Positions 1 through 64,000 of a stretch of DNA of 64,000 nt are shown here, one piece after another. The position numbers were made by a program, and so were the translations under genes. The number at the start of each line of letters is the position of its first letter. The stretch's first letter is position 1. Origin of the DNA: Eledone cirrhosa (Eukaryota); assembly GCA_964016885.1 (NCBI GenBank), contig OZ024741.1, forward strand, positions 250,790,001 to 250,854,000, in the 5' to 3' direction. The notes beneath the pieces were generated by a model, which was not told the origin of the DNA, searched no databases, and saw only the letters and a program-made list of their open reading frames with translations.

Positions 1-739
1 TTGTAAAAAAAATCAGGGGGAGATAATTTGTAAAAAAAAATCAGGGGGAGATAATTTGTAAAAAAAATCAAGGGGAGATAATTTCCAGCCGTCCAAAGAG
101 AGATAATTTCTAGCCGTCCAAGGGGAGATAATTTCCAGCCAAGGGGAGATAATTTCCAGCCGTACAAGGGGAGATAATTTTTAAAAAATCAGGTGGAGAT
201 AATTTGTAAAAACAAAATCAAGGGCAGATAATTTCCAGCCGTCCAAGGGGAGATAATTTCCAGCAGTGCAAGGGGAGATAATTTCCAGCCGTCCAAGGGG
301 AGATAATTTCCCGCCAGCCAAGGGAAGATAATATTTAAAAAAATCAGGCGGAGATAATTTGAAAAAAAAATCAGGGGGAGATAATTTGTAAAAAAATCAG
401 GGGGAGATAATTTGTAAAAAAAAAATCAGGGGGAGATAATTTTTTTAAAAAATCAGGGGGAGATAATTTGTAAAAAAAATCAAGGGGAGATAATTTCCAG
501 CCGTCCAAGGAGAGATAATTTAAAAAAAAATTCAGGCGGAGATAATTTGTAAAAAAAAATCGGGCAGATAATTTGTAAAAAAAATCAGGAGGAGATAATT
601 TGTAAAAAAAATCAAGGGGAGATAATTTCCAGCCGTCCAAGGGAAGATAATTTCCGGCCAAGGGGAGATAATTTCCAGCCGTCCAAGGGGAGATAATTTT
701 TTAAAAAATCAGGTGGAGATAATTTGTAAAAAACATCAG

Positions 740-3700
740 GGGGAGATAATTTGTAAAAACAAAATCAAGGGCAGATAATTTCCAGCTGTCCAAGGGGAGA
801 TAATTTCCAGCCGTGCAAGGGAAGATAATTTCCAGCCGTCCAAGGGGAGATAATTTCCCGCCAGCCAAGGGAAGATAATTTTAAAAAAAATCAGGCGGAG
901 ATTGTAAAAAAATCAGGGGGAGATAATTTTTAAAAAAATCAGGAGATAATTTGTAAAAAAAAATCAGGGGGAGATAATTTGTAAAAAAAATCAGGGGGAG
1001 ATAATTTGTAAAAAAAAATCAGGGGGAGATAATTTGTAAAAAAATCAGGGGTAGATAATTTGTAAAAAAAAATCAGGGGGAGATAATTTGTAAAAAAAAA
1101 TCAGGGGGAGATAATTTGTAAAAAAAATCAAGGGGAGATAATTTGCAGCCGTCCAAGGGGAGATAATTTCCAGCCGTCCAAAGAGAGATAATTTCTAGAC
1201 GTCCAAGGGGAGATAATTTCCAGCCGTCCAAGGGGAGATAATTTCCAGCCGTCCAAGGGGAGATAATTTTTTAAAATATCAGGTGGAGATAATTTGTAAA
1301 AAAATCAGGGGGAGATAATTTGTAAAAACAAAATCAAGGGCAGATAATTTCCAGCCGTCCAAGGGGAGATAATTTCCCGCCAGCCAAGGGAAGATAATTT
1401 TTAAAAAAATCAGACGGATATAATTTGTAGAAAAATCAGGGGGAGATAATTTCCAGCCGTCCAAGGGGAGATAATTTTCAGCCGTGCAAGGAGAGGTAAT
1501 TTCTAGAGGTCCAAGGGGAGATAATTTCCAGCCGTGCAAGGGGAGATAATTTCCAGCCGTCCAAAGAGAGATAATTTCTAGCCGTCCAAGGGGAGATAAT
1601 TTCCAGCCGTGCATGGGGAGATAATTTCCAGCCGTCCAAGGAGAGGTAATTTCTAGCCGTCCAAGGGGAGATAATTTCCAGCCCTCCAAGGGGAGATAAA
1701 TTCCAGCCTCCAAGGGGAGATAATTTCCAGCCAGCCAAGGGGAGATAATTTGTAAAAAAATCAGGGGGAGATAATTTGTAAAAAAAAATCAGGGGGAGAT
1801 AATTTGTAAAAAAAAATCAGGGGGAGATAATTTGTAAAAAAAAATCAGGGGGAGATAATTTGTAAAAAAAATCAAGGAGAGATAATTTTCAGCCGTCCAA
1901 GGGGAGATAATTTTCAGCCGTCCAAGGAGAGGTAATTTCTAGCCGTCCAAGGGGATATAATTTCCAGCCGTCCAATGGGAGATAATTTCCAGCCGTCCAA
2001 GGGGAGATAATTTTAAAAAAAAATCAGGCGGAGATAATTTGTAAAAAATAAATCAGGGGGAGATAATTTGTAAAAAAAAATCAGGGGGAGATAATTTGTA
2101 AAAAAGATCAGGGGGAGATAATTTGTAAAAAAAATCAAGGGTAGATAATTTCCAGCCGTCCAAAGAGAGATAATTTCTAGCCGTCCAAGGGGAGATAATT
2201 TCCAGCCAAGGGGAGATAATTTCCAGCCGTCCAAGGGGAGATAATTTCCAGCCGTGCAAGGGGAGATAATTTCCAGCCGTCCAAGGGGAGATTATTTCCC
2301 GCCAGCCAAGGGAAGATAATATTTAAAAAAATCAGGCGGAGATAATTTGTAAAATAAATCAGGGGGAGATAATTTGTAAAAAAATCAGGGGGAGATAATT
2401 TGTAAAAAAGATCAGGGGGAGATAATTTGTAAAAAAAAATCAGGGGTAGATAATATGTAAAATAAAATCAGGGGGAGATAATTTGTAAAAAAAAAATCAG
2501 GTGGAGATAAATTGTAAAAAAAATCAAGGGGAGATAATTTTCAGCCGTCCAAGGAGGGCTAATTTCTAGCCGTCCAAGGGGAGATAATTTCCAGCCGTCC
2601 AAGGGGAGATAATTTCCAGCCGTCCAAGGGGAGATAATTTTTTTTAAAAAATCAGGCGGAGATAATTTGTAAAAAAAAAATCAGGGGGAGATAATTTGTA
2701 AAAAAAAATCAGGGGGTGATAATTTGTAAAAAAATCAAGGGGAGATAATTTCAAGCCGTCCAAGGGAAGATAATTTCCAGCCTCCAAGGGGCTATAATTT
2801 CCAGAGTCCAAGGGGAGATAATTTCCAGCCAGCGAAGGGGAGATAATTTTTTTAAAAAAATCACTGGGAGATTTGTAAAAAAAATCAGGGGGAGATAATT
2901 TGTAAAAAGAATCAAGGGGAGATAATTTCCAACCGTCCAAAGAGAGATAATTTCTAGCCGTCCAAGGGGAGATAATTTCCAGCCAAGGGGAGATAATTTC
3001 CAGCCGTCCAAGGGGAGATAATTTTTTAAAATATAGGTGGAGATAATTTGTAAAAAAATCAGGGGGAGATAATTTGTAAAAACAAAATCAAGGGCAGATA
3101 ATTTCCAGCCGTCCAAGGGGAGATAATTTCCAGCCGTGCAAGGGGAGATAATTTGTAAAAAAAATCAGGGGGAGATAATTTCCAGCCGTCCAAGGGGAGA
3201 TAATTTTCAGCCGTCCAAGGAGAGGTAATTTCTAGCCGCCCAAGGGAAGATAATTTCCAGCCGTCCAAGGAGAGGTAATTTCTAGCCGTCCAAGGGGAGA
3301 TAATGTCCAGCCGTCCTAGGGGAGATAATTTCCAGCCGTCCAAGGGGAGATAATTTTTAAAAAAATCAGGCGGAGATAATTTGTAAAAAAAAAATCAGGG
3401 GGAGATAATTTGTAAAAAAAAATCAGGGGGAGATAATTTGTAAAAAAAATCAAGGGGAGATAATTTCCCGCCAGCGAAGGGGAGATAATTTTTTTAAAAA
3501 AATCACTGGGAGATTTGTAAAAAAAATCAGGGGGAGATAATTTGTAAAAAAAATCAAGGGGAGATAATTTCCAGCCGTCCAAAGAGAGATAATTTCTAGC
3601 CGTCCAAGGGGAGATAATTTCCAGCCAAGGGGAGATAATTTCCAGCCGTCCAAGGGGAGATAATTTTTTAAAAAATCAGGTGGAGATAATTTGTAAAAAA

Positions 3701-6700
3701 AATCAGGGGATGATAATTTGTAAAAACAAAATCAAGGGCAGATAATTTCCAGCCGTCCAAGGGGAGATAATTTCCAGCAGTGCAAGGGGAGATAATTTCC
3801 AGCCGTCCAAGGGGAGATAATTTCCATCCTTCCAAGGGAAGATAATTTCCAGCCGTCCAAGGGGAGATAATATTTAAAAAAATCAGGCGGAGATAATTTG
3901 TAAAAATATCAGAGGGAGATAATTTGTAAAAAAATCAGGGGGAGATAATTTGTAAAAAAAAAAATCAGGTGGAGATAATTTGTAAAAAAAATCAGTGGGA
4001 GATAATTTGTAAAAAAAAATCAGGGTGAGATAATTTGTAAAAAAATCAGGGGTAGATAATTTGTAAAAAAAAATCAAGGGGAGATAATTTCCAGCCGTCC
4101 AAAGAGAGATGATTTAAAAAAAAAATCAGGCGGAGATAATTTGTAAAAAAAAATCAGGGGTAGATAATTTGTAAAAAAAATCAGGGGGAGATAATTTGTA
4201 AAAAAAATCAAGGGGAGATAATTTCCAGCCGTCCAAGGGAAGATAATTTCCAGCCAAGGGGAGATAATTTCCAGCCGTCCAAGGGGAGATAATTTTTTAA
4301 AAAATCAGGTGGCGATAATTTGTAAAAAAAATCAAGGGGAGATAATTTGTAAAAACAAAATCAAGGGCCGATAATTTCCAGCTGTCCAAGGGGAGATAAT
4401 TTCCAGCCGTGCAAGGGAAGATAACTTCCAGCCGTCCAAGGGGAGATAATTTCCCGCCAGCCAAGGGAAGATAATTTTTAAAAAAATCAGGCGTAGATTG
4501 TAAAAAAATCAGGGGGAGATAATTTGTAAAAAAATCAGGGGGAGATAATTTGTAAAAAAAAATCAGGGGGAGATAATTTGTAAAAGAAATCAGGGGGAGA
4601 TAATTTGTAAAAAAAAATCAGGGGGAGATAATTTGTAAAAAAATCAGGGGTAGATAATTTGTAAAAAAAATCAGGGGGAGATAATTTGTAAAAAAAAAAT
4701 CAGGGGGAGATAATTTGTAAAAAAAATCAAGGGGAGATAATTTGCAGCCGTCCAAGGGGAGATAATTTCCAGCCGTCCAAAGAGAGATAATTTCTAGCCG
4801 TCCAAGGGGAGATAATTTCCAGCCGTCCAAGGGGAGATAATTTCCAGCCGTCCAAGGGGAGATAATTTTTAAAAACATCAGGTGGAGATAATTTGTAAAA
4901 AAATCAGGGGGAGATAATTTGTAAAAACAAAATCAAGGGCAGATAATTTCCAGCCGTCCAAGGGGAGATAATTTCCCGCCAGCCAAGGGAAGATAATTTT
5001 TAAAAAAATCAGGCGGAGATAATTTGAAAAAAAAATCAGGGGGAGATAATTTGTAAAAAAATCAGGGGGAGATAATTTGTAAAAAAAAAATCAGGGGGAG
5101 ATAATTTTTTAACAAAATCAGGGGGAGATAATTTGTAAAAAAAAATCAAGGGGAGATAATTTCCAGCCGTCCAAGGAGAGATAATTTAAAAAAAAATTCA
5201 GGCGGAGATAATTTGTAAAAAAAAATCGGGCAGATAATTTGTAAAAAAAATCAGGAGGAGATAATTTGTAAAAAAAATCAAGGGGAGATAATTTCCAGCC
5301 GTCCAAGGGAAGATAATTTCCGGCCAAGGGGAGATAATTTCCAGCCGTCCAAGGGGAGATAATTTTTTAAAAAATCAGGTGGAGATAATTTGTAAAAAAC
5401 ATCAGGGGGAGATAATTTGTAAAAACAAAATCAAGGGCAGATAATTTCCAGCTGTCCAAGGGGAGATAATTTCCAGCCGTGCAAGGGAAGATAATTTCCA
5501 GCCGTCCAAGGGGAGATAATTTCCCGCCAGCCAAGGGAAGATAATTTTTAAAAAAATCAGGCGGAGATTGTAAAAAAATCAGGGGGAGATAATTTGTAAA
5601 AAAATCAGGAGGAGATAATTTGTAAAAAAAAATCAGGGGGAGATAATTTGTAAAAAAAATCAGGGGGAGATAATTTGTAAAAAAAAATCAGGGGGAGATA
5701 ATTTGTAAAAAAATCAGGGGTAGATAATTTGTAAAAAAAAATCAGGGGGAGATAATTTGTAAAAAAAAATCAGGGGGAGATAATTTGTAAAAAAAATCAA
5801 GGGGAGATAATTTGCAGCCGTCCAAGGGGAGATAATTTCCAGCCGTCCAAAGAGAGATAATTTCTAGACGTCCAAGGGGAGATAATTTCCAGCCGTCCAA
5901 GGGGAGATAATTTCCAGCCGTCCAAGGGGAGATAATTTTTTAAAATATCAGGTGGAGATAATTTGTAAAAAAATCAGGGGGAGATAATTTGTAAAAACAA
6001 AATCAAGGGCAGATAATTTCCAGCCGTCCAAGGGGAGATAATTTCCCGCCAGCCAAGGGAAGATAATTTTTAAAAAAATCAGACGGAGATAATTTGTAGA
6101 AAAATCAGGGGGAGATAATTTCCAGCCGTCCAAGGGGAGATAATTTTCAGCCGTGCAAGGAGAGGTAATTTCTAGAGGTCCAAGGGGAGATAATTTCCAG
6201 CCGTGCAAGGGGAGATAATTTCCAGCCGTCCAAAGAGAGATAATTTCTAGCCGTCCAAGGGGAGATAATTTCCAGCCGTCCAAGGGGAGATAATTTCCAG
6301 CCCTACAAGCAGCTATAATTTCCAGCCGTCCAAAGGGAGATAATTTCCAGCCAGCGAAGGGGAGATAATTTATTTTTAAATTAGGGGGAGATTTGTAAAA
6401 AAAATCAGGGGGAGATAATTTGTAAAAAAAATCAAGGGGAAATAATTTCCAGCCGTCCAAGGGGAGATAATTTCCAGCCGTTCAAGGGGAGATAATTTCC
6501 AGCCGTCCAAGGGGAGATAATTTTTTTAAAAAAATCAGGCGGAGATAATTTGTAAAAAAAAAATCAGGGGGAGATAATTTGTAAAAAAAAATCGGGGAGA
6601 TAATTTGTAAAAAAAAATCAGGGGGAGATAATATGTAAAAAAAATCAAGGGGAGATAATTTCCAGCCGTCCGAGGGAAGATAATTTCCAGCCCTCCAAGG

Positions 6701-9700
6701 GGCTATAATTTCCAGCGTCCAAGGGGAGATAATTTCCAGCCAGCGAAAGGGAGATTATTTTTTTTTAAAAATCACTGGGAGATTTGTAAAAAAAATCAGG
6801 GGGAGATAATTTGTAAAAAAAATCAAGGGGAGATAATTTCCAGCCGTCCAAAGAGAGATAATTTCTAGCCGTCCAAGGGGAGATAATTTCCAGCCGTGCA
6901 AGGGGAGATAATTTCCAGCCGTCCAAGGGGAGATAATTTCCATCCTTCCAAGGGGAGATAATTTCCAGCCGTCCAAGGGGAGATTATTTCCCGCCAGCCA
7001 AGGGAAGATAATATTTAAAAAAATCAGGCGGAGATAATTTGTAAAATAAATCAGGGGGAGATAATTTGTAAAAAAATCAGGGGGAGATAATTTGTAAAAA
7101 AATCAGGGGGAGATAATTTGTAAAAAAAAATCAGGGGTAGATAATATGTAAAATAAGATCAGGGGGAGATAATTTGTAAAAAAAAAATCAGGGGGAGATA
7201 ATTTGTAAAAAAAATCAAGGGGAGATAATTTTCAGCCGTCCAAGGAGAGGTAATTTCTAGCCGTCCAAGGGGAGATAATTTCCAGCCGTCCAAGGGGAGA
7301 TAATTTCCAGCCGTCCAAGGGGAGATAATTTTTTAAAAAAAATCAGGCGGAGATGATTTGTAAAAAAAAAATCAGGGGGAGATAATTTGTAAAAAAAAAT
7401 CAGGGGGAGATAATTTGTAAAAAAAATCAAGGGGAGATAATTTCCAGCCGTCCAAGGGAAGATAATTTCCAGCCTCCAAGGGGCTATAATTTCCAGCGTC
7501 CAAGGGGAGATAATTTCCAGCCAGCGAAGGGGAGATAATTTTTTTAAAAAAATCACTGGGAGATTTGTAAAAAAAATCAGGGGGAGATAATTTGTAAAAA
7601 GAATCAAGGGTAGATAATTTCCAGCCGTCCAAAGAGAGATAATTTCTAGCCGTCCAAGGGGAGATAATTTCCAGCCAAGGGGAGATAATTTCCAGCCGTC
7701 CAAGGGGAGATAATTTTTTTAAATATCAGGTGGAGATAATTTGTAAAAAAAATCAGGGGGAGATAATTTGTAAAAACAAAATCAAGGGCAGATAATTTCC
7801 AGCCGTCCAAGGGGAGATAATTTCCAGCCGTGCAAGGGGAGATAATTTGTAAAAAAAATCAGGGGGAGATAATTTCCAGCCGTCCAAGGGGAGATAATTT
7901 TCAGCCGTCCAAGGAGAGGTAATTTCTAGCCGTCCAAGGGGAGATAATTTCCAGCCGTGCAAGGGGAGATAATTTCCAGCCGTCCAAGGGGAGATAATTT
8001 CCATCCTTCCAAGGGGAGATAATTTCCAGCCGTCCAAGGGGAGATAATTTCCAGCCAGCGAAGGGGAGATAATTTTTTTTTTTAAATCAGGGGTAGATTG
8101 GTAAAAAAAAATCAGGGGGAGATAATTTGTAAAAAAATCAAGGGGAGATAATTTCCAGCCGTCGAAGGAGAGATAATTTATAGCCGTCCAAGGGGAGATA
8201 ATTTCCAGCAAGCCAAGGGAGATAATTTTTTTAAAAAATCAGGCGGAGATGATTTGTAAAAAAAATCAGGTGGAGATAATTTGTTAAAAAAAATCAGGGG
8301 GCGATAATTTCCAGCCGTCCAAGGGGAGATAATTTCCAGCCGTCCAAAGAGAGATAATTTCTAGCCGTCCAAGGGGAGATAATTTCCAGCCAAGGGGAGA
8401 TAATTTCCAGCCGTCCAAGGGGAGATAATTTTTTAAAATATCAGGTGGAGATAATTTGTAAAAAAAATCAGGGGGAGATAATTTGTAAAAACAAAATCAA
8501 GGGCAGATAATTTCCAGCCGTCCAAGGGGAGATAATTTCCATCCTTCCAAGGGGAGATAATTTCCAGCCGTCCAAGGGGAGATAATTTCCATCCAGCCAA
8601 GGGGAGATAATTTTAAAAAAATCAGGCGGAGATAATTTGTAAAAAAAAAAATCAGGGGGAGATAATTTGTAAAAAAAAATCAGGGGGAGATAATTTGTAA
8701 AAAAATCAGGGGTAGATAATTTGTAAAAAAAATCAAGGGGAGATAATTTCCAGCCGTCCCAGGGGAGATAATTTCCAGCCAGCGAAGGGGAGATAATTTT
8801 TTTTTTTAAATCAGGGGTAGATTGGTAAAAAAAAATCAGGGGGAGATAATTTGTAAAAAAATCAAGGGGAGATAATTTCCAGCCGTCGAAGGAGAGATAA
8901 TTTATAGCCGTCCAAGGGGAGATAATTTCCAGCAAGCGAAGGGAGATAATATTTTAAAAAAATCAGGCGGAGATGAATTGTAAAAAAAATCAGGTGGAGA
9001 TAATTTGTTTAAAAAAATCAGGGGGCGATAATTTCCAGCCGTCCAAGGGGAGATAATTTTTTTTTTTAAATCAGGGGAGATAATTTGTAAAAACAAAATC
9101 AAGGGCAGATAATTTCCAGCTGTCCAAGGGGAGATAATTTCCAGCCGTGCAAGGGAAGATAATTTCCAGCCGTCCAAGGGGAGATAATTTCCCGCCAGCC
9201 AAGGGAAGATAATTTTTAAAAAAATCAGGCGGAGATTGTAAAAAAATCAGGGGGAGATAATTTTTAAAAAAATCAGGAGGAGATAATTTGTAAAAAAAAA
9301 TTGGGGGGGAGATAATTTGTAAAAAAAATCAGGGGGAGATAATTTGTAAAAAAAAATCAGGGGGAGATAATTTGTAAAAAAATCAGGGGTAGATAATTTG
9401 TAAAAAAAAATCAGGGGGAGATAATTTGTAAAAAAAAATCAGGGGGAGATAATTTGTAAAAAAAATCAAGGGGAGATAATTTGCAGCCGTCCAAGGGGAG
9501 ATAATTTCCAGCCGTCCAAAGAGAGATAATTTCTAGACGTCCAAGGGGAGATAATTTCCAGCCGTCCAAGGGGAGATAATTTCCAGCCGTCCAAGGGGAG
9601 ATAATTTTTTAAAATATCAGGTGGAGATAATTTGTAAAAAAATCAGGGGGAGATAATTTGTAAAAACAAAATCAAGGGCAGATAATTTCCAGCCGTCCAA

Positions 9701-36000: not shown

Positions 36001-39000
36001 AGAAATCAGGGGAAGATAATTTGTAAAAACAAAATCAAGGGCAGATAATTTCCAGCCGTCCAAGGGGAGATAATTTCCAGCAGTGCAAGGGGAGATAATT
36101 TCTAGCCGTCCAAGGAGAGATAATTTCCATCCTTCCAAGGGAAGATAATTTCCAGCCGTCCAAGGGGAGATAATTTCCCGCCAGCCAAGGGAAGATAATA
36201 TTTAAAAAAATCAGGCGGAGATAATTTGTAAAAAAAATCAGGGGGAGATAATTTGTAAAAAAAAAATCAGTGGGAGATAATTTGTAAAAAAAATCAGGGG
36301 TAGATAATTTGTAAAAAAAAATCAGGGGGAGATAATTTGTAAAAAAAAATCAAGGGGAGATAATTTCCAGCCGTCCAAGGGGAGATAATTTTCAGCCGTC
36401 CAAGGAGAGGTAATTTCTAGCCGTCCAAGGGGAGATAATTTCCAGCCGTCCAAGGGGAGATAATTTCCAGCCAGCGAAGGGGAGATAATTTTTTTTTAAA
36501 AATCACTGGGAGATAATTTTTAAAAAAAGTCAGGCGGAGATAATTTGTAAAAAAAAAATCAGTGGGAGATAATTTGTAAAAAAAAAATCGGGGGGACATA
36601 ATTTGTAAAAAAAATCAAGGGGAGATAATTTCTAGCCGTCCAAGGGAAGATAATTTCCAGCCCTCCAAGGGAAGATAACTTCCAGCCCTCCAAGGGGCTA
36701 TAATTTCCAGCGTCCAAGGGGAGATAATTTCCAGCCAGCGAAGGGGAGATAATTTTTTTTTAAAAATCACTGGGAGATTTGTAAAAAAAATCAGGGGGAG
36801 ATAATTTGTAAAAAAATCAAGGGGAGGTAATTTCCAGCCGTACAAGGAGAGGTAATTTCTAGCCGTCCAAGGGGAGATAATTTCCAGCCGTCCAAGGGGA
36901 GATAATTTCCAGCCGTCCAAGGGGAGATAATTTAAAAAAAAAATCAGGCGGAGATAATTTGTAAAAAAAAAATCAGGGGGAGATAATTTGTAAAAAAAAA
37001 TCAGGGGGAGATAATTTGTAAAAAAAATCAAGGGGAGATAATTTCCAGCCGTCCAAGGGAAGATAATTTCCAGCCCTCCAAGGAAAGATAACTTCCAGCC
37101 CTCCAAGGGGCTATAATTTCCAGCGTCCAAGGGGAGATAATTTCCAGCCAGCGAAGGGGAGATTTTTTTAAAAAAATCACTGGGAGATTTTTTAAAAAAA
37201 TCAGGGGTAAATAATTTGTAAAAAAAAATCAGGGGGAGATAATTTGTAAAAAAAATCAGGGGGAGATAATTTGTAAAAAATCAAGGGGAGATAATTTCCA
37301 GCCGTCCAAGGGGAGATAATTTTCAGCCATCCAAGGAGAGGTAATTTCTAGCCGTTCAAGGGGAGATAATTTCCAGCCGTCCAAGGGGAGATAATTTCCA
37401 GCCGTCCAAGGGGAGATAATTTTTTAAAAAAATCAGGCGGAGCTAATTTGTAAAAAAATAATCAGGGGCAGATAATTTGTAAAAAAATATCAGGGGGAGA
37501 TAATTTGTATACAAAATCAAGGGGAGATAATTTCCAGCCGTCCAAGGCGAGATAATTTCCAGCCGTCCAAGGGGAGATAATTTACAGCTGTCCAAGTAGA
37601 GGTAATTTCTAGGCGTCCAAGGGGAGATAATTTCCAGCCGTCCAAGAGGAGATAATTTCCAGCCAGCCAAGGGGAGATAATTTCCAGCCAGCCAAGGGGA
37701 GATATTTGTAAAAAAAATCAGGTGGAGATAATTTGTAAAAAAAAAATCAGGGGTAGATAATTTGTAGAAGACATAAAGGGGAGATAATTTCCAGCCGTCC
37801 AAGGAGAGGTAATTTCTAGCCGTCCAAGGGGAGATAAATTCCAGCCTCCAAGGGGAGATAATTTCCAGGCAGCCAAGGGTATATAATTTGTAAAAAAAAT
37901 CAGGTGGAGATAATTTGTAAAAAAAAATCAGGGGGAGATAATTTGTAAAAAAAATCAGGGGGAGATAATTTGTATAAAAAAAACAAGGGGAGATAATTTC
38001 CAGCCGTCCAAGGGGAGATAATTTTCAGCCGTCCAAGGAGAGGTAATTTCTAGCCGTCCAAGGAGAGATAATTTCCAGCCGTCCAAGGGGAGATAATTTC
38101 CAGCCGTCCAAGGGGAGATAATTTTTTTAAAAAAATCAGGCGGAGATAAGTTGTAAAAAAAATCAGGGGGAGATAATTTGTAAAAAAAAATCAGGGGGAG
38201 ATAATTTGTAAAAAAAATCAAGGGGAGATAATTTCCAGCCGTCCAAAGAGAGATAATTTCTAGCCGTCCAAGGGGAGATAATTTCCAGCCAAGGGGAGAT
38301 AATTTCCAGCCGTACAAGGGGAGATAATTTTTAAAAAATCAGGTGGAGATAATTTGTAAAAACAAAATCAAGGGCAGATAATTTCCAGCCGTCCAAGGGG
38401 AGATAATTTCCAGCAGTGCAAGGGGAGATAATTTCCAGCCGTCCAAGGGGAGATAATTTCCCGCCAGCCAAGGGAAGATAATATTTAAAAAAATCAGGCG
38501 GAGATAATTTGAAAAAAAAATCAGGGGGAGATAATTTGTAAAAAAATCAGGGGGAGATAATTTGTAAAAAAAAAATCAGGGGGAGATAATTTTTTTAAAA
38601 AATCAGGGGGAGATAATTTGTAAAAAAAATCAAGGGGAGATAATTTCCAGCCGTCCAAGGAGAGATAATTTAAAAAAAAATTCAGGCGGAGATAATTTGT
38701 AAAAAAAAATCGGGCAGATAATTTGTAAAAAAAATCAGGAGGAGATAATTTGTAAAAAAAATCAAGGGGAGATAATTTCCAGCCGTCCAAGGGAAGATAA
38801 TTTCCGGCCAAGGGGAGATAATTTCCAGCCGTCCAAGGGGAGATAATTTTTTAAAAAATCAGGTGGAGATAATTTGTAAAAAACATCAGGGGGAGATAAT
38901 TTGTAAAAACAAAATCAAGGGCAGATAATTTCCAGCTGTCCAAGGGGAGATAATTTCCAGCCGTGCAAGGGAAGATAATTTCCAGCCGTCCAAGGGGAGA

Positions 39001-42000
39001 TAATTTCCCGCCAGCCAAGGGAAGATAATTTTAAAAAAAATCAGGCGGAGATTGTAAAAAAATCAGGGGGAGATAATTTTTAAAAAAATCAGGAGATAAT
39101 TTGTAAAAAAAAATCAGGGGGAGATAATTTGTAAAAAAAATCAGGGGGAGATAATTTGTAAAAAAAAATCAGGGGGAGATAATTTGTAAAAAAATCAGGG
39201 GTAGATAATTTGTAAAAAAAAATCAGGGGGAGATAATTTGTAAAAAAAAATCAGGGGGAGATAATTTGTAAAAAAAATCAAGGGGAGATAATTTGCAGCC
39301 GTCCAAGGGGAGATAATTTCCAGCCGTCCAAAGAGAGATAATTTCTAGACGTCCAAGGGGAGATAATTTCCAGCCGTCCAAGGGGAGATAATTTCCAGCC
39401 GTCCAAGGGGAGATAATTTTTTAAAATATCAGGTGGAGATAATTTGTAAAAAAATCAGGGGGAGATAATTTGTAAAAACAAAATCAAGGGCAGATAATTT
39501 CCAGCCGTCCAAGGGGAGATAATTTCCCGCCAGCCAAGGGAAGATAATTTTTAAAAAAATCAGACGGATATAATTTGTAGAAAAATCAGGGGGAGATAAT
39601 TTCCAGCCGTCCAAGGGGAGATAATTTTCAGCCGTGCAAGGAGAGGTAATTTCTAGAGGTCCAAGGGGAGATAATTTCCAGCCTTGCAAGGGGAGATAAT
39701 TTCCAGCCGTCCAAAGAGAGATAATTTCTAGCCGTCCAAGGGGAGATAATTTCCAGCCGTGCATGGGGAGATAATTTCCAGCCGTCCAAGGAGAGGTAAT
39801 TTCTAGCCGTCCAAGGGGAGATAATTTCCAGCCCTCCAAGGGGAGATAAATTCCAGCCTCCAAGGGGAGATAATTTCCAGCCAGCCAAGGGGAGATAATT
39901 TGTAAAAAAATCAGGGGGAGATAATTTGTAAAAAAAAATCAGGGGGAGATAATTTGTAAAAAAAAATCAGGGGGAGATAATTTGTAAAAAAAAATCAGGG
40001 GGAGATAATTTGTAAAAAAAATCAAGGAGAGATAATTTTCAGCCGTCCAAGGGGAGATAATTTTCAGCCGTCCAAGGAGAGGTAATTTCTAGCCGTCCAA
40101 GGGGATATAATTTCCAGCCGTCCAATGGGAGATAATTTCCAGCCGTCCAAGGGGAGATAATTTTTAAAAAAAATCAGGCGGAGATAATTTGTAAAAAATA
40201 AATCAGGGGGAGATAATTTGTAAAAAAAAATCAGGGGGAGATAATTTGTAAAAAAGATCAGGGGGAGATAATTTGTAAAAAAAATCAAGGGTAGATAATT
40301 TCCAGCCGTCCAAAGAGAGATAATTTCTAGCCGTCCAAGGGGAGATAATTTCCAGCCAAGGGGAGATAATTTCCAGCCGTCCAAGGGGAGATAATTTCCA
40401 GCCGTGCAAGGGGAGATAATTTCCAGCCGTCCAAGGGGAGATTATTTCCCGCCAGCCAAGGGAAGATAATATTTAAAAAAATCAGGCGGAGATAATTTGT
40501 AAAATAAATCAGGGGGAGATAATTTGTAAAAAAATCAGGGGGAGATAATTTGTAAAAAAGATCAGGGGGAGATAATTTGTAAAAAAAAATCAGGGGTAGA
40601 TAATATGTAAAATAAAATCAGGGGGAGATAATTTGTAAAAAAAAAATCAGGTGGAGATAAATTGTAAAAAAAATCAAGGGGAGATAATTTTCAGCCGTCC
40701 AAGGAGGGCTAATTTCTAGCCGTCCAAGGGGAGATAATTTCCAGCCGTCCAAGGGGAGATAATTTCCAGCCGTCCAAGGGGAGATAATTTTTTTTTAAAA
40801 ATCAGGCGGAGATAATTTGTAAAAAAAAAATCAGGGGGAGATAATTTGTAAAAAAAAATCAGGGGGTGATAATTTGTAAAAAAATCAAGGGGAGATAATT
40901 TCAAGCCGTCCAAGGGAAGATAATTTCCAGCCTCCAAGGGGCTATAATTTCCAGAGTCCAAGGGGAGATAATTTCCAGCCAGCGAAGGGGAGATAATTTT
41001 TTTAAAAAAATCACTGGGAGATTTGTAAAAAAAATCAGGGGGAGATAATTTGTAAAAAGAATCAAGGGGAGATAATTTCCAACCGTCCAAAGAGAGATAA
41101 TTTCTAGCCGTCCAAGGGGAGATAATTTCCAGCCAAGGGGAGATAATTTCCAGCCGTCCAAGGGGAGATAATTTTTTAAAATATAGGTGGAGATAATTTG
41201 TAAAAAAATCAGGGGGAGATAATTTGTAAAAACAAAATCAAGGGCAGATAATTTCCAGCCGTCCAAGGGGAGATAATTTCCAGCCGTGCAAGGGGAGATA
41301 ATTTGTAAAAAAAATCAGGGGGAGATAATTTCCAGCCGTCCAAGGGGAGATAATTTTCAGCCGTCCAAGGAGAGGTAATTTCTAGCCGCCCAAGGGAAGA
41401 AGGGGCTATAATTTCTAGCGTCCAAGGGGAGATAATTTCCAGCCAGCGAAAGGGAGATAATTTTTTTTAAAAAATCACTGGGAGATTTGTAAAAAAAATC
41501 AGGGGGAGATAATTTGTAAAAAAATCAAGGGGAGATAATTTCCAGCCGTCCAAAGAGAGATAATTTCTAGCCGTCCAAGGGGAGATAATTTCCAGCCAAG
41601 GGGAGATAATTTCCAGCCGTCCAAGTGGAGATAATTTCCAGCCGTGCAAGGGGAGATAATTTCCAGCCGTCCAAGGGGAGATAATTTCCATCCTTCCAAG
41701 GGGAGATAATTTCCAGCCGTCCAAGGGGAGATTATTTCCCGCCAGCCAAGGGAAGATATTATTTAAAAAAATCAGGCGGAGATAATTTGTAAAATAAATT
41801 AGGGGGAGATAATTTGTAAAAAAATCAGGGGGAGATAATTTGTAAAAAAAATCAAGGGGAGATAATTTCCAGCCAGCGAAGGAGAGATAATTTTAAAAAA
41901 AAAATCACTGGGAGATTTGTAAAACAAATCAGGGGGAGATAATTTGTAAAAAAAATCAAGGGGAGATAATTTCCAGCCGTCCAAAGAGAGATAATTTCTA

Positions 42001-45000
42001 GCCGTCCAAGGGGAGATAATTTCCAGCCAAGGGGAGATAATTTCCAGCCGTCCAAGGGGAGATAATTTTTTAAAAAATCAGGTGGAGATAATTTGTAAAA
42101 GAAATCAGGGGAAGATAATTTGTAAAAACAAAATCAAGGGCAGATAATTTCCAGCCGTCCAAGGGGAGATAATTTCCAGCAGTGCAAGGGGAGATAATTT
42201 CTAGCCGTCCAAGGAGAGATAATTTCCATCCTTCCAAGGGAAGATAATTTCCAGCCGTCCAAGGGGAGATAATTTCCCGCCAGCCAAGGGAAGATAATAT
42301 TTAAAAAAATCAGGCGGAGATAATTTGTAAAAAAAATCAGGGGGAGATAATTTGTAAAAAAAAAATCAGTGGGAGATAATTTGTAAAAAAAATCAGGGGT
42401 AGATAATTTGTAAAAAAAAATCAGGGGGAGATAATTTGTAAAAAAAAATCAAGGGGAGATAATTTCCAGCCGTCCAAGGGGAGATAATTTTCAGCCGTCC
42501 AAGGAGAGGTAATTTCTAGCCGTCCAAGGGGAGATAATTTCCAGCCGTCCAAGGGGAGATAATTTCCAGCCAGCGAAGGGGAGATAATTTTTTTTTAAAA
42601 ATCACTGGGAGATAATTTTTAAAAAAAGTCAGGCGGAGATAATTTGTAAAAAAAAAATCAGTGGGAGATAATTTGTAAAAAAAAAATCGGGGGGACATAA
42701 TTTGTAAAAAAAATCAAGGGGAGATAATTTCTAGCCGTCCAAGGGAAGATAATTTCCAGCCCTCCAAGGGAAGATAACTTCCAGCCCTCCAAGGGGCTAT
42801 AATTTCCAGCGTCCAAGGGGAGATAATTTCCAGCCAGCGAAGGGGAGATAATTTTTTTTTAAAAATCACTGGGAGATTTGTAAAAAAAATCAGGGGGAGA
42901 TAATTTGTAAAAAAATCAAGGGGAGATAATTTCCAGCCGTACAAGGAGAGGTAATTTCTAGCCGTCCAAGGGGAGATAATTTCCAGCCGTCCAAGGGGAG
43001 ATAATTTCCAGCCGTCCAAGGGGAGATAATTTAAAAAAAAAATCAGGCGGAGATAATTTGTAAAAAAAAAATCAGGGGGAGATAATTTGTAAAAAAAAAT
43101 CAGGGGGAGATAATTTGTAAAAAAAATCAAGGGGAGATAATTTCCAGCCGTCCAAGGGAAGATAATTTCCAGCCCTCCAAGGAAAGATAACTTCCAGCCC
43201 TCCAAGGGGCTATAATTTCCAGCGTCCAAGGGGAGATAATTTCCAGCCAGCGAAGGGGAGATTTTTTTAAAAAAATCACTGGGAGATTTTTTAAAAAAAT
43301 CAGGGGTAAATAATTTGTAAAAAAAAATCAGGGGGAGATAATTTGTAAAAAAAATCAGGGGGAGATAATTTGTAAAAAATCAAGGGGAGATAATTTCCAG
43401 CCGTCCAAGGGGAGATAATTTTCAGCCATCCAAGGAGAGGTAATTTCTAGCCGTTCAAGGGGAGATAATTTCCAGCCGTCCAAGGGGAGATAATTTCCAG
43501 CCGTCCAAGGGGAGATAATTTTTTAAAAAAATCAGGCGGAGCTAATTTGTAAAAAAATAATCAGGGGCAGATAATTTGTAAAAAAATATCAGGGGGAGAT
43601 AATTTGTATACAAAATCAAGGGGAGATAATTTCCAGCCGTCCAAGGCGAGATAATTTCCAGCCGTCCAAGGGGAGATAATTTACAGCTGTCCAAGTAGAG
43701 GTAATTTCTAGGCGTCCAAGGGGAGATAATTTCCAGCCGTCCAAGAGGAGATAATTTCCAGCCAGCCAAGGGGAGATAATTTCCAGCCAGCCAAGGGGAG
43801 ATATTTGTAAAAAAAATCAGGTGGAGATAATTTGTAAAAAAAAAATCAGGGGTAGATAATTTGTAGAAGACATAAAGGGGAGATAATTTCCAGCCGTCCA
43901 AGGAGAGGTAATTTCTAGCCGTCCAAGGGGAGATAAATTCCAGCCTCCAAGGGGAGATAATTTCCAGGCAGCCAAGGGTATATAATTTGTAAAAAAAATC
44001 AGGTGGAGATAATTTGTAAAAAAAAATCAGGGGGAGATAATTTGTAAAAAAAATCAGGGGGAGATAATTTGTATAAAAAAAACAAGGGGAGATAATTTCC
44101 AGCCGTCCAAGGGGAGATAATTTTCAGCCGTCCAAGGAGAGGTAATTTCTAGCCGTCCAAGGAGAGATAATTTCCAGCCGTCCAAGGGGAGATAATTTCC
44201 AGCCGTCCAAGGGGAGATAATTTTTTTAAAAAAATCAGGCGGAGATAAGTTGTAAAAAAAATCAGGGGGAGATAATTTGTAAAAAAAAATCAGGGGGAGA
44301 TAATTTGTAAAAAAAATCAAGGGGAGATAATTTCCAGCCGTCCAAAGAGAGATAATTTCTAGCCGTCCAAGGGGAGATAATTTCCAGCCAAGGGGAGATA
44401 ATTTCCAGCCGTACAAGGGGAGATAATTTTTAAAAAATCAGGTGGAGATAATTTGTAAAAACAAAATCAAGGGCAGATAATTTCCAGCCGTCCAAGGGGA
44501 GATAATTTCCAGCAGTGCAAGGGGAGATAATTTCCAGCCGTCCAAGGGGAGATAATTTCCCGCCAGCCAAGGGAAGATAATATTTAAAAAAATCAGGCGG
44601 AGATAATTTGAAAAAAAAATCAGGGGGAGATAATTTGTAAAAAAATCAGGGGGAGATAATTTGTAAAAAAAAAATCAGGGGGAGATAATTTTTTTAAAAA
44701 ATCAGGGGGAGATAATTTGTAAAAAAAATCAAGGGGAGATAATTTCCAGCCGTCCAAGGAGAGATAATTTAAAAAAAAATTCAGGCGGAGATAATTTGTA
44801 AAAAAAAATCGGGCAGATAATTTGTAAAAAAAATCAGGAGGAGATAATTTGTAAAAAAAATCAAGGGGAGATAATTTCCAGCCGTCCAAGGGAAGATAAT
44901 TTCCGGCCAAGGGGAGATAATTTCCAGCCGTCCAAGGGGAGATAATTTTTTAAAAAATCAGGTGGAGATAATTTGTAAAAAACATCAGGGGGAGATAATT

Positions 45001-47498
45001 TGTAAAAACAAAATCAAGGGCAGATAATTTCCAGCTGTCCAAGGGGAGATAATTTCCAGCCGTGCAAGGGAAGATAATTTCCAGCCGTCCAAGGGGAGAT
45101 AATTTCCCGCCAGCCAAGGGAAGATAATTTTAAAAAAAATCAGGCGGAGATTGTAAAAAAATCAGGGGGAGATAATTTTTAAAAAAATCAGGAGATAATT
45201 TGTAAAAAAAAATCAGGGGGAGATAATTTGTAAAAAAAATCAGGGGGAGATAATTTGTAAAAAAAAATCAGGGGGAGATAATTTGTAAAAAAATCAGGGG
45301 TAGATAATTTGTAAAAAAAAATCAGGGGGAGATAATTTGTAAAAAAAAATCAGGGGGAGATAATTTGTAAAAAAAATCAAGGGGAGATAATTTGCAGCCG
45401 TCCAAGGGGAGATAATTTCCAGCCGTCCAAAGAGAGATAATTTCTAGACGTCCAAGGGGAGATAATTTCCAGCCGTCCAAGGGGAGATAATTTCCAGCCG
45501 TCCAAGGGGAGATAATTTTTTAAAATATCAGGTGGAGATAATTTGTAAAAAAATCAGGGGGAGATAATTTGTAAAAACAAAATCAAGGGCAGATAATTTC
45601 CAGCCGTCCAAGGGGAGATAATTTCCCGCCAGCCAAGGGAAGATAATTTTTAAAAAAATCAGACGGATATAATTTGTAGAAAAATCAGGGGGAGATAATT
45701 TCCAGCCGTCCAAGGGGAGATAATTTTCAGCCGTGCAAGGAGAGGTAATTTCTAGAGGTCCAAGGGGAGATAATTTCCAGCCGTGCAAGGGGAGATAATT
45801 TCCAGCCGTCCAAAGAGAGATAATTTCTAGCCGTCCAAGGGGAGATAATTTCCAGCCGTGCATGGGGAGATAATTTCCAGCCGTCCAAGGAGAGGTAATT
45901 TCTAGCCGTCCAAGGGGAGATAATTTCCAGCCCTCCAAGGGGAGATAAATTCCAGCCTCCAAGGGGAGATAATTTCCAGCCAGCCAAGGGGAGATAATTT
46001 GTAAAAAAATCAGGGGGAGATAATTTGTAAAAAAAAATCAGGGGGAGATAATTTGTAAAAAAAAATCAGGGGGAGATAATTTGTAAAAAAAAATCAGGGG
46101 GAGATAATTTGTAAAAAAAATCAAGGAGAGATAATTTTCAGCCGTCCAAGGGGAGATAATTTTCAGCCGTCCAAGGAGAGGTAATTTCTAGCCGTCCAAG
46201 GGGATATAATTTCCAGCCGTCCAATGGGAGATAATTTCCAGCCGTCCAAGGGGAGATAATTTTAAAAAAAAATCAGGCGGAGATAATTTGTAAAAAATAA
46301 ATCAGGGGGAGATAATTTGTAAAAAAAAATCAGGGGGAGATAATTTGTAAAAAAGATCAGGGGGAGATAATTTGTAAAAAAAATCAAGGGTAGATAATTT
46401 CCAGCCGTCCAAAGAGAGATAATTTCTAGCCGTCCAAGGGGAGATAATTTCCAGCCAAGGGGAGATAATTTCCAGCCGTCCAAGGGGAGATAATTTCCAG
46501 CCGTGCAAGGGGAGATAATTTCCAGCCGTCCAAGGGGAGATTATTTCCCGCCAGCCAAGGGAAGATAATATTTAAAAAAATCAGGCGGAGATAATTTGTA
46601 AAATAAATCAGGGGGAGATAATTTGTAAAAAAATCAGGGGGAGATAATTTGTAAAAAAGATCAGGGGGAGATAATTTGTAAAAAAAAATCAGGGGTAGAT
46701 AATATGTAAAATAAAATCAGGGGGAGATAATTTGTAAAAAAAAAATCAGGTGGAGATAAATTGTAAAAAAAATCAAGGGGAGATAATTTTCAGCCGTCCA
46801 AGGAGGGCTAATTTCTAGCCGTCCAAGGGGAGATAATTTCCAGCCGTCCAAGGGGAGATAATTTCCAGCCGTCCAAGGGGAGATAATTTTTTTTAAAAAA
46901 TCAGGCGGAGATAATTTGTAAAAAAAAAATCAGGGGGAGATAATTTGTAAAAAAAAATCAGGGGGTGATAATTTGTAAAAAAATCAAGGGGAGATAATTT
47001 CAAGCCGTCCAAGGGAAGATAATTTCCAGCCTCCAAGGGGCTATAATTTCCAGAGTCCAAGGGGAGATAATTTCCAGCCAGCGAAGGGGAGATAATTTTT
47101 TTAAAAAAATCACTGGGAGATTTGTAAAAAAAATCAGGGGGAGATAATTTGTAAAAAGAATCAAGGGGAGATAATTTCCAACCGTCCAAAGAGAGATAAT
47201 TTCTAGCCGTCCAAGGGGAGATAATTTCCAGCCAAGGGGAGATAATTTCCAGCCGTCCAAGGGGAGATAATTTTTTAAAATATAGGTGGAGATAATTTGT
47301 AAAAAAATCAGGGGGAGATAATTTGTAAAAACAAAATCAAGGGCAGATAATTTCCAGCCGTCCAAGGGGAGATAATTTCCAGCCGTGCAAGGGGAGATAA
47401 TTTGTAAAAAAAATCAGGGGGAGATAATTTCCAGCCGTCCAAGGGGAGATAATTTTCAGCCGTCCAAGGAGAGGTAATTTCTAGCCGCCCAAGGGAAG
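29199..47498 (+). repeat. Three near-identical tandem copies of a ~6.1-kb higher-order repeat (29199-35300, 35301-41399, 41400-47498)
   Basis: Matching ORF-track entries recur at offsets 6102 and 6099 (29266/35368/41467; 30513/36615/42714; 32419/38521/44620). The junction GCCGCCCAAGGGAAG|AAGGGGCTATAATTTCTAG is seen at 35301 and 41400. Confidence 0.96.
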
Positions 47499-56527: not shown

Positions 56528-57178
56528 CAAGGGCAGATAATTTCCAGCCGTCCAAGGGGAGATAATTTCCAGCAGTGCAAGGGGAGATAATTTCCAGCCG
56601 TCCAAGGGGAGATAATTTCCATCCTTCCAAGGGGAGATAATTTCCAGGCGTCCAAGGGGAGATAATTTCCAGCCGTCCAAGGGGAGATAATTTCCATCCT
56701 TCCAAGGGGAGATAATTTCCAGCCGTCCAAGGGGAGATAATTTCCAGCAGTGCAAGGGGAGATAATTTCCAGCCGTCCAAGGGGAGATAATTTCCATCCT
56801 TCCAAGGGGAGATAATTTCCAGCCGTCCAAGGGGAGATAATTTCCATCCTTCCAAGGGGAGATAATTTCCAGCCGTCCAAGGGGAGATAATTTCCAGCAG
56901 TGCAAGGGGAGATAATTTCCAGCCGTCCAAGGGGAGATAATTTCCATCCTTCCAAGGGGAGATAATTTCCAGCCGTCCAAGGGGAGATAATTTCCAGCAG
57001 TGCAAGGGGAGATAATTTCCAGCCGTCCAAGGGGAGATAATTTCCATCCTTCCAAGGGGAGATAATTTCCAGCCGTCCAAGGGGAGATAATTTTCAGCCG
57101 TCCAAGGAGAGGTAATTTCTAGCCGTCCAAGGGGAGATAATTTCTAACCGTCCAAGGGGAGATAATTTCCAGCCGTCC
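56528..57178 (+). repeat. Pure type-A sub-array: 26 x 25-bp monomers with 50/100-bp sub-periodicity
   Basis: Consensus CCAGCCGTCC alternates with CCAGCAGTGC and CCATCCTTCC tails. No A-tract monomer occurs for 650 bp. Confidence 0.93.
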
Positions 57179-62500: not shown

Positions 62501-64000
62501 CAGCCGTCCAAGGAGAGATAATTTCCATCCTTCCAAGGGGAGATAATTTCCAGCCGTCCAAGGGGAGATAATTTCCCGCCAGCCAAGGGAAGATAATATT
62601 TAAAAAAATCAGGGGGAGATAATTTGTAAAAAAAAAATCAGGGGGAGATAATTTGTAAAAAAAATCAGGGGGAGATAATTTGTAAAAAAAAAATCAGGGG
62701 GAGATAATTTGTAAAAAAAATCAGGGGGAGATAATTTGTAAAAAAAAATCAGGGGTAGATAATTTGTAAAAAAAAATCAGGGGGAGATAATTTGTAAAAA
62801 AAAATCAAGGGGAGATAATTTCCAGCCGTCCAAGGGGAGATAATTTTCAGCCGTCCAAGGAGAGGTAATTTCTAGCCGTCCAAGGGGAGATAATTTCCAG
62901 CCGTCCAAGGGGAGATAATTTCCAGCCGTCCAAGGGGAGATAATTTAAAAAAAAAATCAGGCGGAGATAATTTGTAAAAAAAAAATCAGTGGGAGATAAT
63001 TTGTAAAAAAAAAATCGGGGGGAGATAATTTGTAAAAAAAATCAAGGGGAGATAATTTCTAGCCGTCCAAGGGAAGATAATTTCCAGCCCTCCAAGGGAA
63101 GATAACTTCCAGCCTTCCAAGGGGCTATAATTTCCAGCGTCCAAGGGGAGATAATTTCCAGCCAGCGAAGGGGAGATAATTTTTTTAAAAAAATCACTGG
63201 GAGATTTGTAAAAAAAATCAGGGGGAGATAATTTGTAAAAAAATCAAGGGGAGATAATTTCCAGCCGTCCAAAGAGAGATAATTTCTAGCCGTCCAAGGG
63301 GAGATAATTTCCAGCCAACGGGAGATAATTTCCAGCCGTCCAAGGAGAGATAATTTTTTAAAAAATCAGGTGGAGATAATTTGTAAAAAAAATCAGGGGA
63401 AGATAATTTGTAAAAACAAAATCAAGTGCAGATAATTTCCAGCCGTCCAAGGGGAGATAATTTCCATCCTTCCAAGGGGAGATAATTTCCAGGCGTCCAA
63501 GGGGAGATAATTTCCCGCCAGCCAAGGGAAGATAATATTTAAAAAAATCAGGCGGAGATAATTTGTAAAAAAAAACGGGGAGATAATTTGGAAAAAAAAA
63601 TCAGGCGTAGATAATTTGTAAAAAAAAATCAGGGGTAGATAATTTGTAAAAAAAAATCAGGGGGAGATAATTTGTAAAAAAAAATCAAGGGGAGATAATT
63701 TCCAGCCGTCCAAGGGGAGATAATTTTCAGCCGTCCAAGGAGAGGTAATTTCTAGCCGTCCAAGGGGAGATAATTTCCAGCCGTCCAAGGGGAGATAATT
63801 TCCAGCCGTCCAAGGGGAGATAATTTAAAAAAAAAATCAGGCGGAGATAATTTGTAAAAAAAAAATCAGGGGGAGATAATTTGTAAAAAAAAATCAGGGG
63901 GAGATAATTTGTAAAAAAATCAAGGGGAGATAATTTCCAGCCGTCCAAGGGAAGATAATTTCCAGCCCTCCAAGGAAAGATAACTTCCAGCCCTCCAAGG
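59600..64000 (+). repeat. Long-range copy of ~16100-20540
   Basis: Offsets are 43486 (16358/59844, 17351/60837, 17633/61119) and 43464 (19578/63042). Shared rare variants include CCAACGGGAG, AAGTGCAGAT and AAAACGGGGAG. Confidence 0.88.

What the first reader, a model, noticed from the sequence alone, without database searches (positions are those of the whole stretch)
1..64000. Two-state satellite with a directional grammar: A-run -> T/A transition monomer -> marked B monomer -> B-run -> A-run
Seen: monomers are not randomly mixed. The head usually predicts the tail: CAAGGGGAGATAATTT is followed by CCAGCCGTC, and CAGGGGGAGATAATTT by GT(A)nT. Most exits from an A-run go through a dedicated monomer, CAAGGG(G/A)AGATAA(T)n(A)nT. 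The next B monomer then carries a diagnostic head, CAGGCGGAG, CAGGTGGAG or CACTGGGAG (e.g. 165-205, 319-360, 684-725, 2835-2880). B-to-A transitions are direct. Inference: these rules survive across HOR copies of very different ages. They reflect either descent from one ancestral A-n/B-m unit reshuffled by in-register recombination, or selection on block structure. I do not recognise this family and it may be undescribed.
Basis: partly seen in the sequence, partly recalled or inferred. Interest (0 to 1): 0.72.

Follow-up and report, generated by a model that had tools for sequence, protein, structure and literature searches.

The report
Two-block satellite with inherited monomer order
The ordered pattern of two short repeat types in this array is real, but it is likely just the inherited outline of one ancestral two-block unit copied many times; the repeat fills an estimated 15-17 million bases, mostly near the middle of the four largest chromosomes of what is likely an octopus.

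Summary
The order is real: of 2,472 monomers, 249 of 293 exits from A-runs pass through the T/A monomer, 225 of 255 of those are followed by a marked B head, and direct A-to-B steps number 0 against 292 in shuffles. The same order holds in 46 loci elsewhere in the genome. It is most likely passive. The transition tail and the marked head are one 16-19-base spacer, a B spacer with private changes. Unrelated variants inside runs are linked just as tightly, and linkage fades beyond 60 bases. Exceptions look like crossovers in the 13-base shared core, and their share varies by array. A neutral, homology-dependent duplication/deletion simulation keeps the order. I found no sign of selection on cycle length. 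The family (about 15-17 Mb; host inferred to be an octopod) sits mid-chromosome on the four giant chromosomes and on C21. My searches found no paper describing it; Dfam and Repbase could not be checked. A centromeric or fusion-site role is open. Three look-ups found no earlier scan note of this repeat on other DNA.

The parts
1..64000 (+). Satellite array of A monomers (25 bases, GC tail) and B monomers (26-29 bases, A-tract tail) sharing a 13-base core; part of a stretch whose ends lie at G000:C2:250,702,411 and about 250,860,580 (the part left of the window was only sampled)
181..196 (+). A-to-B junction spacer (J tail plus marked head, CAGGTGG family): one physical spacer, a B spacer with the first G replaced by T and a marked head
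335..351 (+). A-to-B junction spacer, CAGGCGG family
700..716 (+). A-to-B junction spacer, CAGGTGG family
2850..2868 (+). A-to-B junction spacer, CACTGGG family (next core carries a 3-base deletion)
3555..3732 (+). Modal cycle A-A-A-A-J-M-B, 178 bases, CAGGTGG family, with position-specific variants inside the A-run
7428..7604 (+). Modal cycle A-A-A-A-J-M-B, 177 bases, CACTGGG family
3139..3190 (+). Rule exception A-x-y-A (one plain B spacer inside an A-run); 12 copies in the window share one flanking context, likely one event
1736..1761 (+). Rule exception A-x-B: A head joined to a B tail, junction pair missing (likely crossover in the 13-base core)
29199..47498 (+). Three tandem copies of a 6.1-kb higher-order repeat (6,102, 6,099, 6,099 bases; 4-5 mismatches between copies)
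4039..8335 (+). 4.3-kb block repeated about 8.6 kb downstream with 6 mismatches
56528..57177 (+). Longest A-run of the window, 26 monomers

Best explanation
The array is a two-block satellite whose monomer order was likely inherited from one ancestral unit (an A-run followed by a B-run) and is likely preserved passively because copying and deletion events probably need more matching sequence than the 13 bases that A and B monomers share. Cut at the core, the array has four spacers: P (A to A), Q (A to B), R (B to B) and S (B to A), read as P-run, Q, R-run, S (shown). Q is an R spacer with private changes, T for the first G and a marked head (shown); these likely arose in the ancestral unit (inferred). 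Inner monomers have near-identical neighbours, so runs can grow and shrink; boundary spacers have none, so they stay single and keep their marks (inferred, reproduced in simulation). Rare crossovers in the 13-base core remove the junction pair and give the exceptions (inferred). Larger duplications then built nested higher-order repeats up to 6.1 kb (shown) and copies spread between chromosomes (inferred from 91-97% identity).
For: 2,202 of 2,470 spacer steps fit the four-spacer cycle. The J-to-marked-head link (D' 0.96, 14 bases apart) is matched by links unrelated to the A-to-B switch, e.g. D' 1.00 at 12 bases and 0.87 at 12 bases; no feature keeps D' of 0.8 or more beyond 60 bases. Whole cycles are inherited as families with fixed variants at inner A positions, and the four largest junction families each occur on C1, C2, C3, C4 and C21. 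After A-x the next monomer is plain B in 92 of 137 cases and marked in 5, as expected if the junction pair is deleted rather than reverted. The join that needs a crossover in 2 shared bases (GC tail to B head) is 0 in all 10 groups by exact motif (2 of 975 in the window by a looser motif). Simulation without selection, 8 replicates per setting: without mutation x/y vanish at a required match of 14 bases and J-to-M locks at 16; at 6-9 the order decays. Mixed match lengths give medians near the observed values (A-to-J 0.85, B-to-A 0.87-0.90 vs 0.87, 0.86; 16 replicates). Rule strength differs by array: J-to-M 42 of 75 on C1; x exits 22 of 79 on C3 and 23 of 85 at C2 248.5-250.2 Mb. A sister satellite on C1 puts runs of a nearly identical monomer against a different fixed 229-336-base block, again with marked first and last monomers.
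Against: The simulation shows sufficiency only. The match length is not identifiable: 9 bases with 1,500 events gave medians 0.86/0.11/0.77, also near the data. The mixed-length runs gave too few x exits (medians 0-0.02 vs 0.09) and too little B-run spread (medians 0.3-0.8 vs 1.63). Replicates drifted widely, while real arrays keep mean A-runs of 3.9-4.8 on all chromosomes; this needs recent exchange between arrays or some constraint. The 177-178-base cycle is modal in several junction families. The single origin of the junction is inferred; the CACTGGG head could be a separate derivation from the plain B head.
Confidence: 0.8

Rival explanations
1. Selection keeps a nucleosome-sized cycle: the GC-richer A-run wraps a (centromeric) nucleosome and the A-tract B-run forms the linker, so junctions and cycle length are constrained.
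For: The modal cycle is 177-178 bases: 142 of 526 canonical cycles, modal in the CAGGTGG (47 of 113), CACTGGG (38 of 76) and TAGGGGG (17 of 17) families. Arrays are megabase-sized and mid-chromosome. Most satellite units are of nucleosomal length or 5-10 bases (PMC8122249 abstract).
Against: Cycle lengths run from about 40 to 760 bases, SD about 100. A-run and B-run lengths are positively, not negatively, correlated (rho 0.29, 644 de-duplicated cycles); fewer cycles fall in 150-240 bases (0.44) than after permutation (0.48+-0.013). The two CAGGCGG families have medians of 235 and 319 bases. Junction marks differ between families and exceptions have been amplified.
Confidence: 0.1
2. The junction marks are produced again and again by a local mutational process at A-to-B boundaries (slippage of T and A tracts, CpG decay), not inherited once.
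For: T-run and A-run lengths in Q vary widely. Marked heads are several and not all one step apart. CAGGCGG to CAGGTGG is a CpG transition (sequence).
Against: Each junction type travels with its own upstream and downstream variants. New-looking boundaries (x exits) carry no marks.
Confidence: 0.07
3. The pattern is an assembly or decomposition artefact.
For: Satellite assemblies can collapse or mis-orient; 200-base N gaps border the arrays on C1 and C2.
Against: Raw exact-motif counts without classification show the same links in 10 groups. The 6.1-kb copies differ by 4-5 substitutions and no homopolymer indels. The order recurs on five chromosome-scale contigs and two small ones.
Confidence: 0.02

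Closest known systems
Human Y minisatellite MSY1 (PMC2599865; 12 passages read)
   Same: 25-base unit; variant repeats arranged in blocks with junctions; mutation mostly changes block length by 1-3 units while the modular order persists (145 of 159 alleles of one lineage keep it); explained by sister-chromatid misalignment.
   Different: MSY1 is one locus of about 77 units with one pass through three blocks, base-substitution variants only and invariant unit length. Here the block cycle is itself repeated over megabases, monomers differ in a whole 9-12-base tail, lengths vary, and boundaries carry private marks.
Higher-order repeat satellites such as human alpha satellite, and the Smith, Stephan and Rice turnover models (PMC8122249 section 4.2; bioRxiv 10.1101/731471, 12 passages)
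   Same: Diverged monomers (A monomers average 1.58 differences from the modal 25-mer) nested in near-identical multi-kilobase copies; arrays shared between chromosomes; order kept by homology-guided, out-of-register copying.
   Different: The monomer is 25-28 bases, not about 171; two monomer classes come in variable-length runs. No centromere protein data exist here.
Bovine satellite 1.706 'patchwork' and human satellite I (both recalled; one search listed 4 papers that mention the terms, none read)
   Same: As recalled: a long-range repeat built of blocks of two related short units (1.706); alternating A and B short units (satellite I).
   Different: As recalled, block lengths there are largely fixed; no sequence relation was tested.

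Membership tests
Complex satellite DNA with higher-order repeats | Head-to-tail monomers in arrays of 100 kb to megabases | tested here: met
   Window fully tandem; samples positive across C2 245.6-248.28 and 248.5-250.5 Mb and C3 163.0-165.65 and 165.9-167.7 Mb
Complex satellite DNA with higher-order repeats | Higher-order copies more alike than neighbouring monomers | tested here: met
   6.1-kb copies differ at 4-5 bases; A monomers differ at 1.58 of 25 from the modal unit
Complex satellite DNA with higher-order repeats | Non-coding, no structured-RNA unit | tested here: met
   No Rfam match at E<=0.01 in window 1-8000 (8,000 of 64,000 bases given); longest stop-free stretches 69 aa (+) and 250 aa (-), repeat-derived
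Centromeric satellite | CENP-A occupancy | not testable with these tools
   No chromatin data
Centromeric satellite | One array on every chromosome | tested here: inconclusive
   Two rare-variant listings (22 of 22; first 100 of 135) hit C1-C4, C21, C123, C1499 and none of C5-C20 or C22-C122; small contigs could belong to other chromosomes
Centromeric satellite | Nucleosome-length unit | tested here: inconclusive
   Mode 177-178 bases in 142 of 526 cycles, but broad and not compensated
Modular minisatellite (MSY1 type) | Variant units in blocks with a persistent order | tested here: met
Modular minisatellite (MSY1 type) | Single kilobase-sized locus with invariant unit length | tested here: not met
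   Megabase arrays on several chromosomes; core-to-core distances mostly 21-30 bases
Chromosome-fusion scar | Interstitial telomeric array and mirror polarity at the site | tested here: inconclusive
   Telomeric array at C2 251.17-251.205 Mb; none in the sparse samples on C1, C3, C4, C21; minus-then-plus polarity on C2 and C3, but scaffold orientation is unverified and C3 has a further minus block at 169.0 Mb
Chromosome-fusion scar | Synteny break against unfused relatives | not testable with these tools
   No relatives held for this genome
rDNA-spacer-derived satellite | Monomer present as a subrepeat in the rDNA intergenic spacer | tested here: not met
   No core or A-monomer match in two 18S-to-18S intervals, C12 and C25; the 11 scored 18S copies (of 2,314 candidates) lie elsewhere

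The most novel reading that the evidence does not exclude
This is the centromeric or centric-fusion satellite of the four giant octopod chromosomes: a 178-base, nucleosome-sized unit built from seven short sub-repeats (GC block plus A-tract block) that is loosening by internal slippage. It would be the first centromere-associated DNA identified in a cephalopod as far as my searches reach, and its boundary marks would record where rare short-homology crossovers happen in a megabase array.
Probability: 0.2. Interest if true: 0.6.

Novelty: new member of a known kind. Interest (0 to 1): 0.3.

Why it matters
The order of monomers needs no new mechanism: block structure kept by homology-guided copying is known from MSY1 and higher-order satellites. 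What the array offers is a clean natural read-out. Because A and B share only 13 bases, each crossover in that core leaves a visible mark, so the share of short-homology events in satellite turnover can be counted. The family is large, apparently undescribed, and sits mid-chromosome on the four giant chromosomes. That makes it a ready probe for cephalopod centromeres and chromosome fusions, on which my searches found no paper.

Tried and rejected
Nucleosome-length selection: no compensation between run lengths. Purifying selection against the GC-tail/B-head join: the single A-to-G change that would also make it occurs once in 2,674 monomers, in line with other rare changes such as 1-2 contexts at several other A positions. 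Array start as a mobile-element end: the left end begins at a marked head, but the flanking repeat joins through a run of A shared by both; the right end joins a 7-base satellite through 3 shared bases. rDNA-spacer origin: no match. Ribozyme or RNA unit: no Rfam match. Metagenome scan for the A monomer: 0 matches. First simulation (seed with one B, 25 kb, 3 replicates) was noisy and was superseded. Locus L035 includes non-satellite flank that adds a few spurious classes to the C1 row; L035 and L011 were left out of the group means. Paper searches: motifs (0 papers); octopus plus satellite DNA, centromere, tandem repeat (13 papers, 11 listed, none on cephalopod satellites by title or abstract start); searches likewise; two cephalopod genome papers had 0 occurrences of centromer or satellite in the main text. 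Searches were seen as listings only. Supplements were not read; repeat libraries there could hold this consensus.
Full report
1. What is there. The window is one uninterrupted tandem array on the + strand. Anchoring on the 9-base core gave 2,472 monomers with no gap over 36 bases. Each monomer is a 7-base head, the core and a tail. Classes: A (A head, GC tail) 1,253; B (B head, A-tract tail) 576; M (marked head, B tail) 260; J (A head, T/A tail) 255; y (B head, GC tail) 42; x (A head, B tail) 39; others 47.

2. 249 of 293 exits from A-runs go through J, 225 of 255 J are followed by M, and 244 of 294 entries into A-runs come from B. In 1,000 shuffles J-to-M averaged 26.8 and A-to-B 291.7, against 225 and 0 observed. 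The four quoted examples are present. A shuffle is a weak null because much of the window is recently duplicated: three 6.1-kb copies at 29,199-47,498 differ by 4-5 bases, and two 4-kb blocks by 3-6 bases. After dropping repeated 8-monomer contexts the rates are unchanged (144 of 163; 130 of 148). Outside the window, in 46 loci with 8,385 monomers, 673 of 877 exits use J, 561 of 682 J are followed by M, and 653 of 882 entries come from B.

3. The grammar re-read. Cut at the core, the array has four spacers: P (1,278), R (592), S (264) and Q (234), with 103 others; 2,202 of 2,470 steps fit P-run, Q, R-run, S. Q is the J tail plus the marked head, one piece of 16-19 bases (e.g. 181-196, 335-351). 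It reads as an R spacer whose first G is T and whose G-run is interrupted; loss of the G joins the T and A tracts, which then vary in length. So 'J then M' is linkage of two marks 14 bases apart. S is an equally dedicated junction, and one S family has its own marks (D' 1.00, 115 copies). Direction itself is automatic for any repeated two-block unit.

4. Are junctions special? Among 38 common variants in 8,792 pooled monomers, the J-to-C mark has D' 0.96, beside 1.00, 0.87 and 0.78 for pairs 10-12 bases apart that do not involve the A-to-B switch. Some pairs keep D' of 0.8 or more up to 60 bases; none beyond. Cycles fall into families with fixed variants at inner A positions, and the four largest junction families each occur on C1, C2, C3, C4 and C21. 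The class-level grammar is therefore the coarsest level of a nested history.

5. Exceptions. After A-x comes plain B in 92 of 137 pooled cases, y in 25, M in only 5. Reversion of J would leave M in place, so x mostly marks loss of the J-M pair through the 13 bases that A and B share (inference). In the window the 27 x exits reduce to a handful of contexts; one context accounts for 12 copies. The join needing a crossover in 2 bases is absent by exact motif in all 10 groups; the point change that would mimic it occurs once in 2,674 monomers, as rare as several other changes. Rule strength drifts between arrays: J-to-M is 42 of 75 on C1, and x exits are 22 of 79 on C3.

6. Simulation. A natural cycle (window 30,716-30,926) was repeated to 60 kb and put through 6,000 duplications or deletions that need an exact match of h bases, without selection. 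Without mutation (8 replicates each) x and y vanish at h=14, J-to-M reaches 1.00 at h=16, and h=6-9 erodes the order (J-to-M 0.20-0.63). With mutation and mixed h (16 replicates) medians were A-to-J 0.85-0.97 and B-to-A 0.87-0.93 at 6,000 events, against 0.87 and 0.86 observed. Limits: h=9 with 1,500 events also came close (0.86, 0.11, 0.77), so no threshold can be read off; mixed runs under-produced x exits and B-run spread; replicates varied widely.

7. Selection. The commonest cycle is A4-J-M-B, 177-178 bases: 142 of 526 canonical cycles, modal in four junction families but not in the CAGGCGG families (medians 235 and 319). Lengths span about 40-760 bases. A-run and B-run lengths correlate positively (rho 0.29, 644 de-duplicated cycles), and 0.44 of cycles lie in 150-240 bases against 0.48+-0.013 after permutation. 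I read the 178-base mode as a likely ancestral unit, not a maintained one, but cannot exclude chromatin constraint.

8. Genome setting. The window is G000:C2:250,790,001-250,854,000 in a 3.0-Gb genome. Exact motifs occur 17,708 and 74,679 times, scaling to 16.8 and 15.2 Mb, about 0.5% of the genome. Arrays: C1 251.19-252.1 of 443 Mb; C2 245.6-248.28 (minus) and 248.5-251.1 (plus, with interruptions) of 416 Mb; C3 162.7-165.65 (minus), 165.87-167.7 (plus) and 169.0 (minus) of 379 Mb; C4 205.46-206.42 of 379 Mb with further patches at 140.1 and 247.4; C21 17.55-17.72 of 35.4 Mb; and small contigs C123 and C1499. These limits come from spaced samples. Two rare-variant listings (22 of 22; first 100 of 135) hit none of C5-C20 or C22-C122. 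A telomeric array lies at C2 251.17-251.205 Mb; none was seen in the samples at the other sites. N gaps border the arrays on C1 and C2, so orientation is not secure. Three octopods have 2n=60 (PMC5646656, abstract start in listing); that the four giant chromosomes are fusions is my inference and was not tested.

9. Host. The mitochondrial COX1 reads with the invertebrate code (AGA as serine, AAA as lysine), in the order ND2, COX1, COX2, ATP6. 18S matches span 2.86-3.25 kb. That these fit an octopod is recalled knowledge; earlier scan notes on this genome say the same, unchecked beyond this.

10. A sister satellite. On C1 at 251.77-252.21 Mb, interleaved with the A/B array, runs of about 4-45 copies of a monomer one base from A alternate with a fixed AT-rich block of 229-336 bases and no B monomers; first and last monomers of the runs carry recurrent variants. 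The same architecture with another partner is what descent from a two-block unit predicts. Neither monomer is in two rDNA spacers.

11. Comparison. It works like MSY1, where 25-base variants sit in blocks whose lengths change while the order persists (PMC2599865, 12 passages), scaled up into a higher-order satellite as in the turnover models reviewed in PMC8122249 (12 passages and section 4.2) and in bioRxiv 10.1101/731471 (12 passages). It meets the tests for a complex higher-order satellite and fails those for a minisatellite locus and an rDNA-spacer derivative; centromere membership is untested. Bovine 1.706 and human satellite I are recalled analogues only. No paper held the motifs, and searches turned up nothing on cephalopod satellites or centromeres; the library lacks most subscription papers, supplements were not read, and Dfam and Repbase were unavailable.

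12. Verdict. A real and striking pattern with an ordinary cause (confidence 0.8), in a large and apparently undescribed satellite family. New member of a known kind; interest 0.3, rising to 0.6 if it proves to be the centromeric or fusion-site DNA of these chromosomes (probability 0.2).

Noticed in passing
L116, L123-L125, L128 (G000:C1:251.77-252.21 Mb, minus strand): Sister satellite: runs of about 4-45 A-like monomers (one base from A) alternate with a fixed 229-336-base AT-rich block; 209 exact copies of a block motif genome-wide, the first 100 listed all on C1; interleaved with the A/B array.
   Followed up: partly
L005, L119, L120 (G000:C2:251.17-251.205 Mb): Interstitial array of degenerate telomeric hexamers about 0.3 Mb from the window, mid-chromosome.
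   Followed up: partly
L002:6580-10000, L003, L060; L042, L083, L085-L088 (C2 250.86-250.9 and 251.14 Mb; C4 139.5-143 Mb): A 7-base satellite directly joined to the array's right end through 3 shared bases; found in all six other samples taken between 139.5 and 143 Mb on C4, around a patch of the A/B array.
   Followed up: no
L009, L010 (G000:C2:255 and 260 Mb): A 16-base satellite in opposite orientations at two samples 5 Mb apart; another candidate for centromeric DNA.
   Followed up: no
L011:2250-2480 and L057 (C2 250,702,250 plus; 248,283,167 minus): The same flank-to-array junction occurs in inverted orientation 2.4 Mb away at 98% identity; the flank belongs to an AT-rich unit repeated about every 6.1 kb on C2 and C4.
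   Followed up: partly
G000:C2 248.28-248.5 Mb and C3 165.65-165.87 Mb: On both chromosomes a minus-strand block and a plus-strand block of the satellite face away from an island of other sequence about 0.2 Mb long.
   Followed up: partly
window 1-64000: 2,139 WGATAR (GATA-type) words, nearly one per monomer; could act as a binding sink if the chromatin is open. Motif name recalled; untested.
   Followed up: no
G000:C2 345.1, 206.2, 163.8, 115.2 Mb (L022): Nuclear copies of mitochondrial COX1 on C2, some with stops.
   Followed up: no
L127 (G000:C1:252.26 Mb): GC-rich (0.47-0.61) non-repetitive stretch beside the array, possibly a retroelement; not examined.
   Followed up: no
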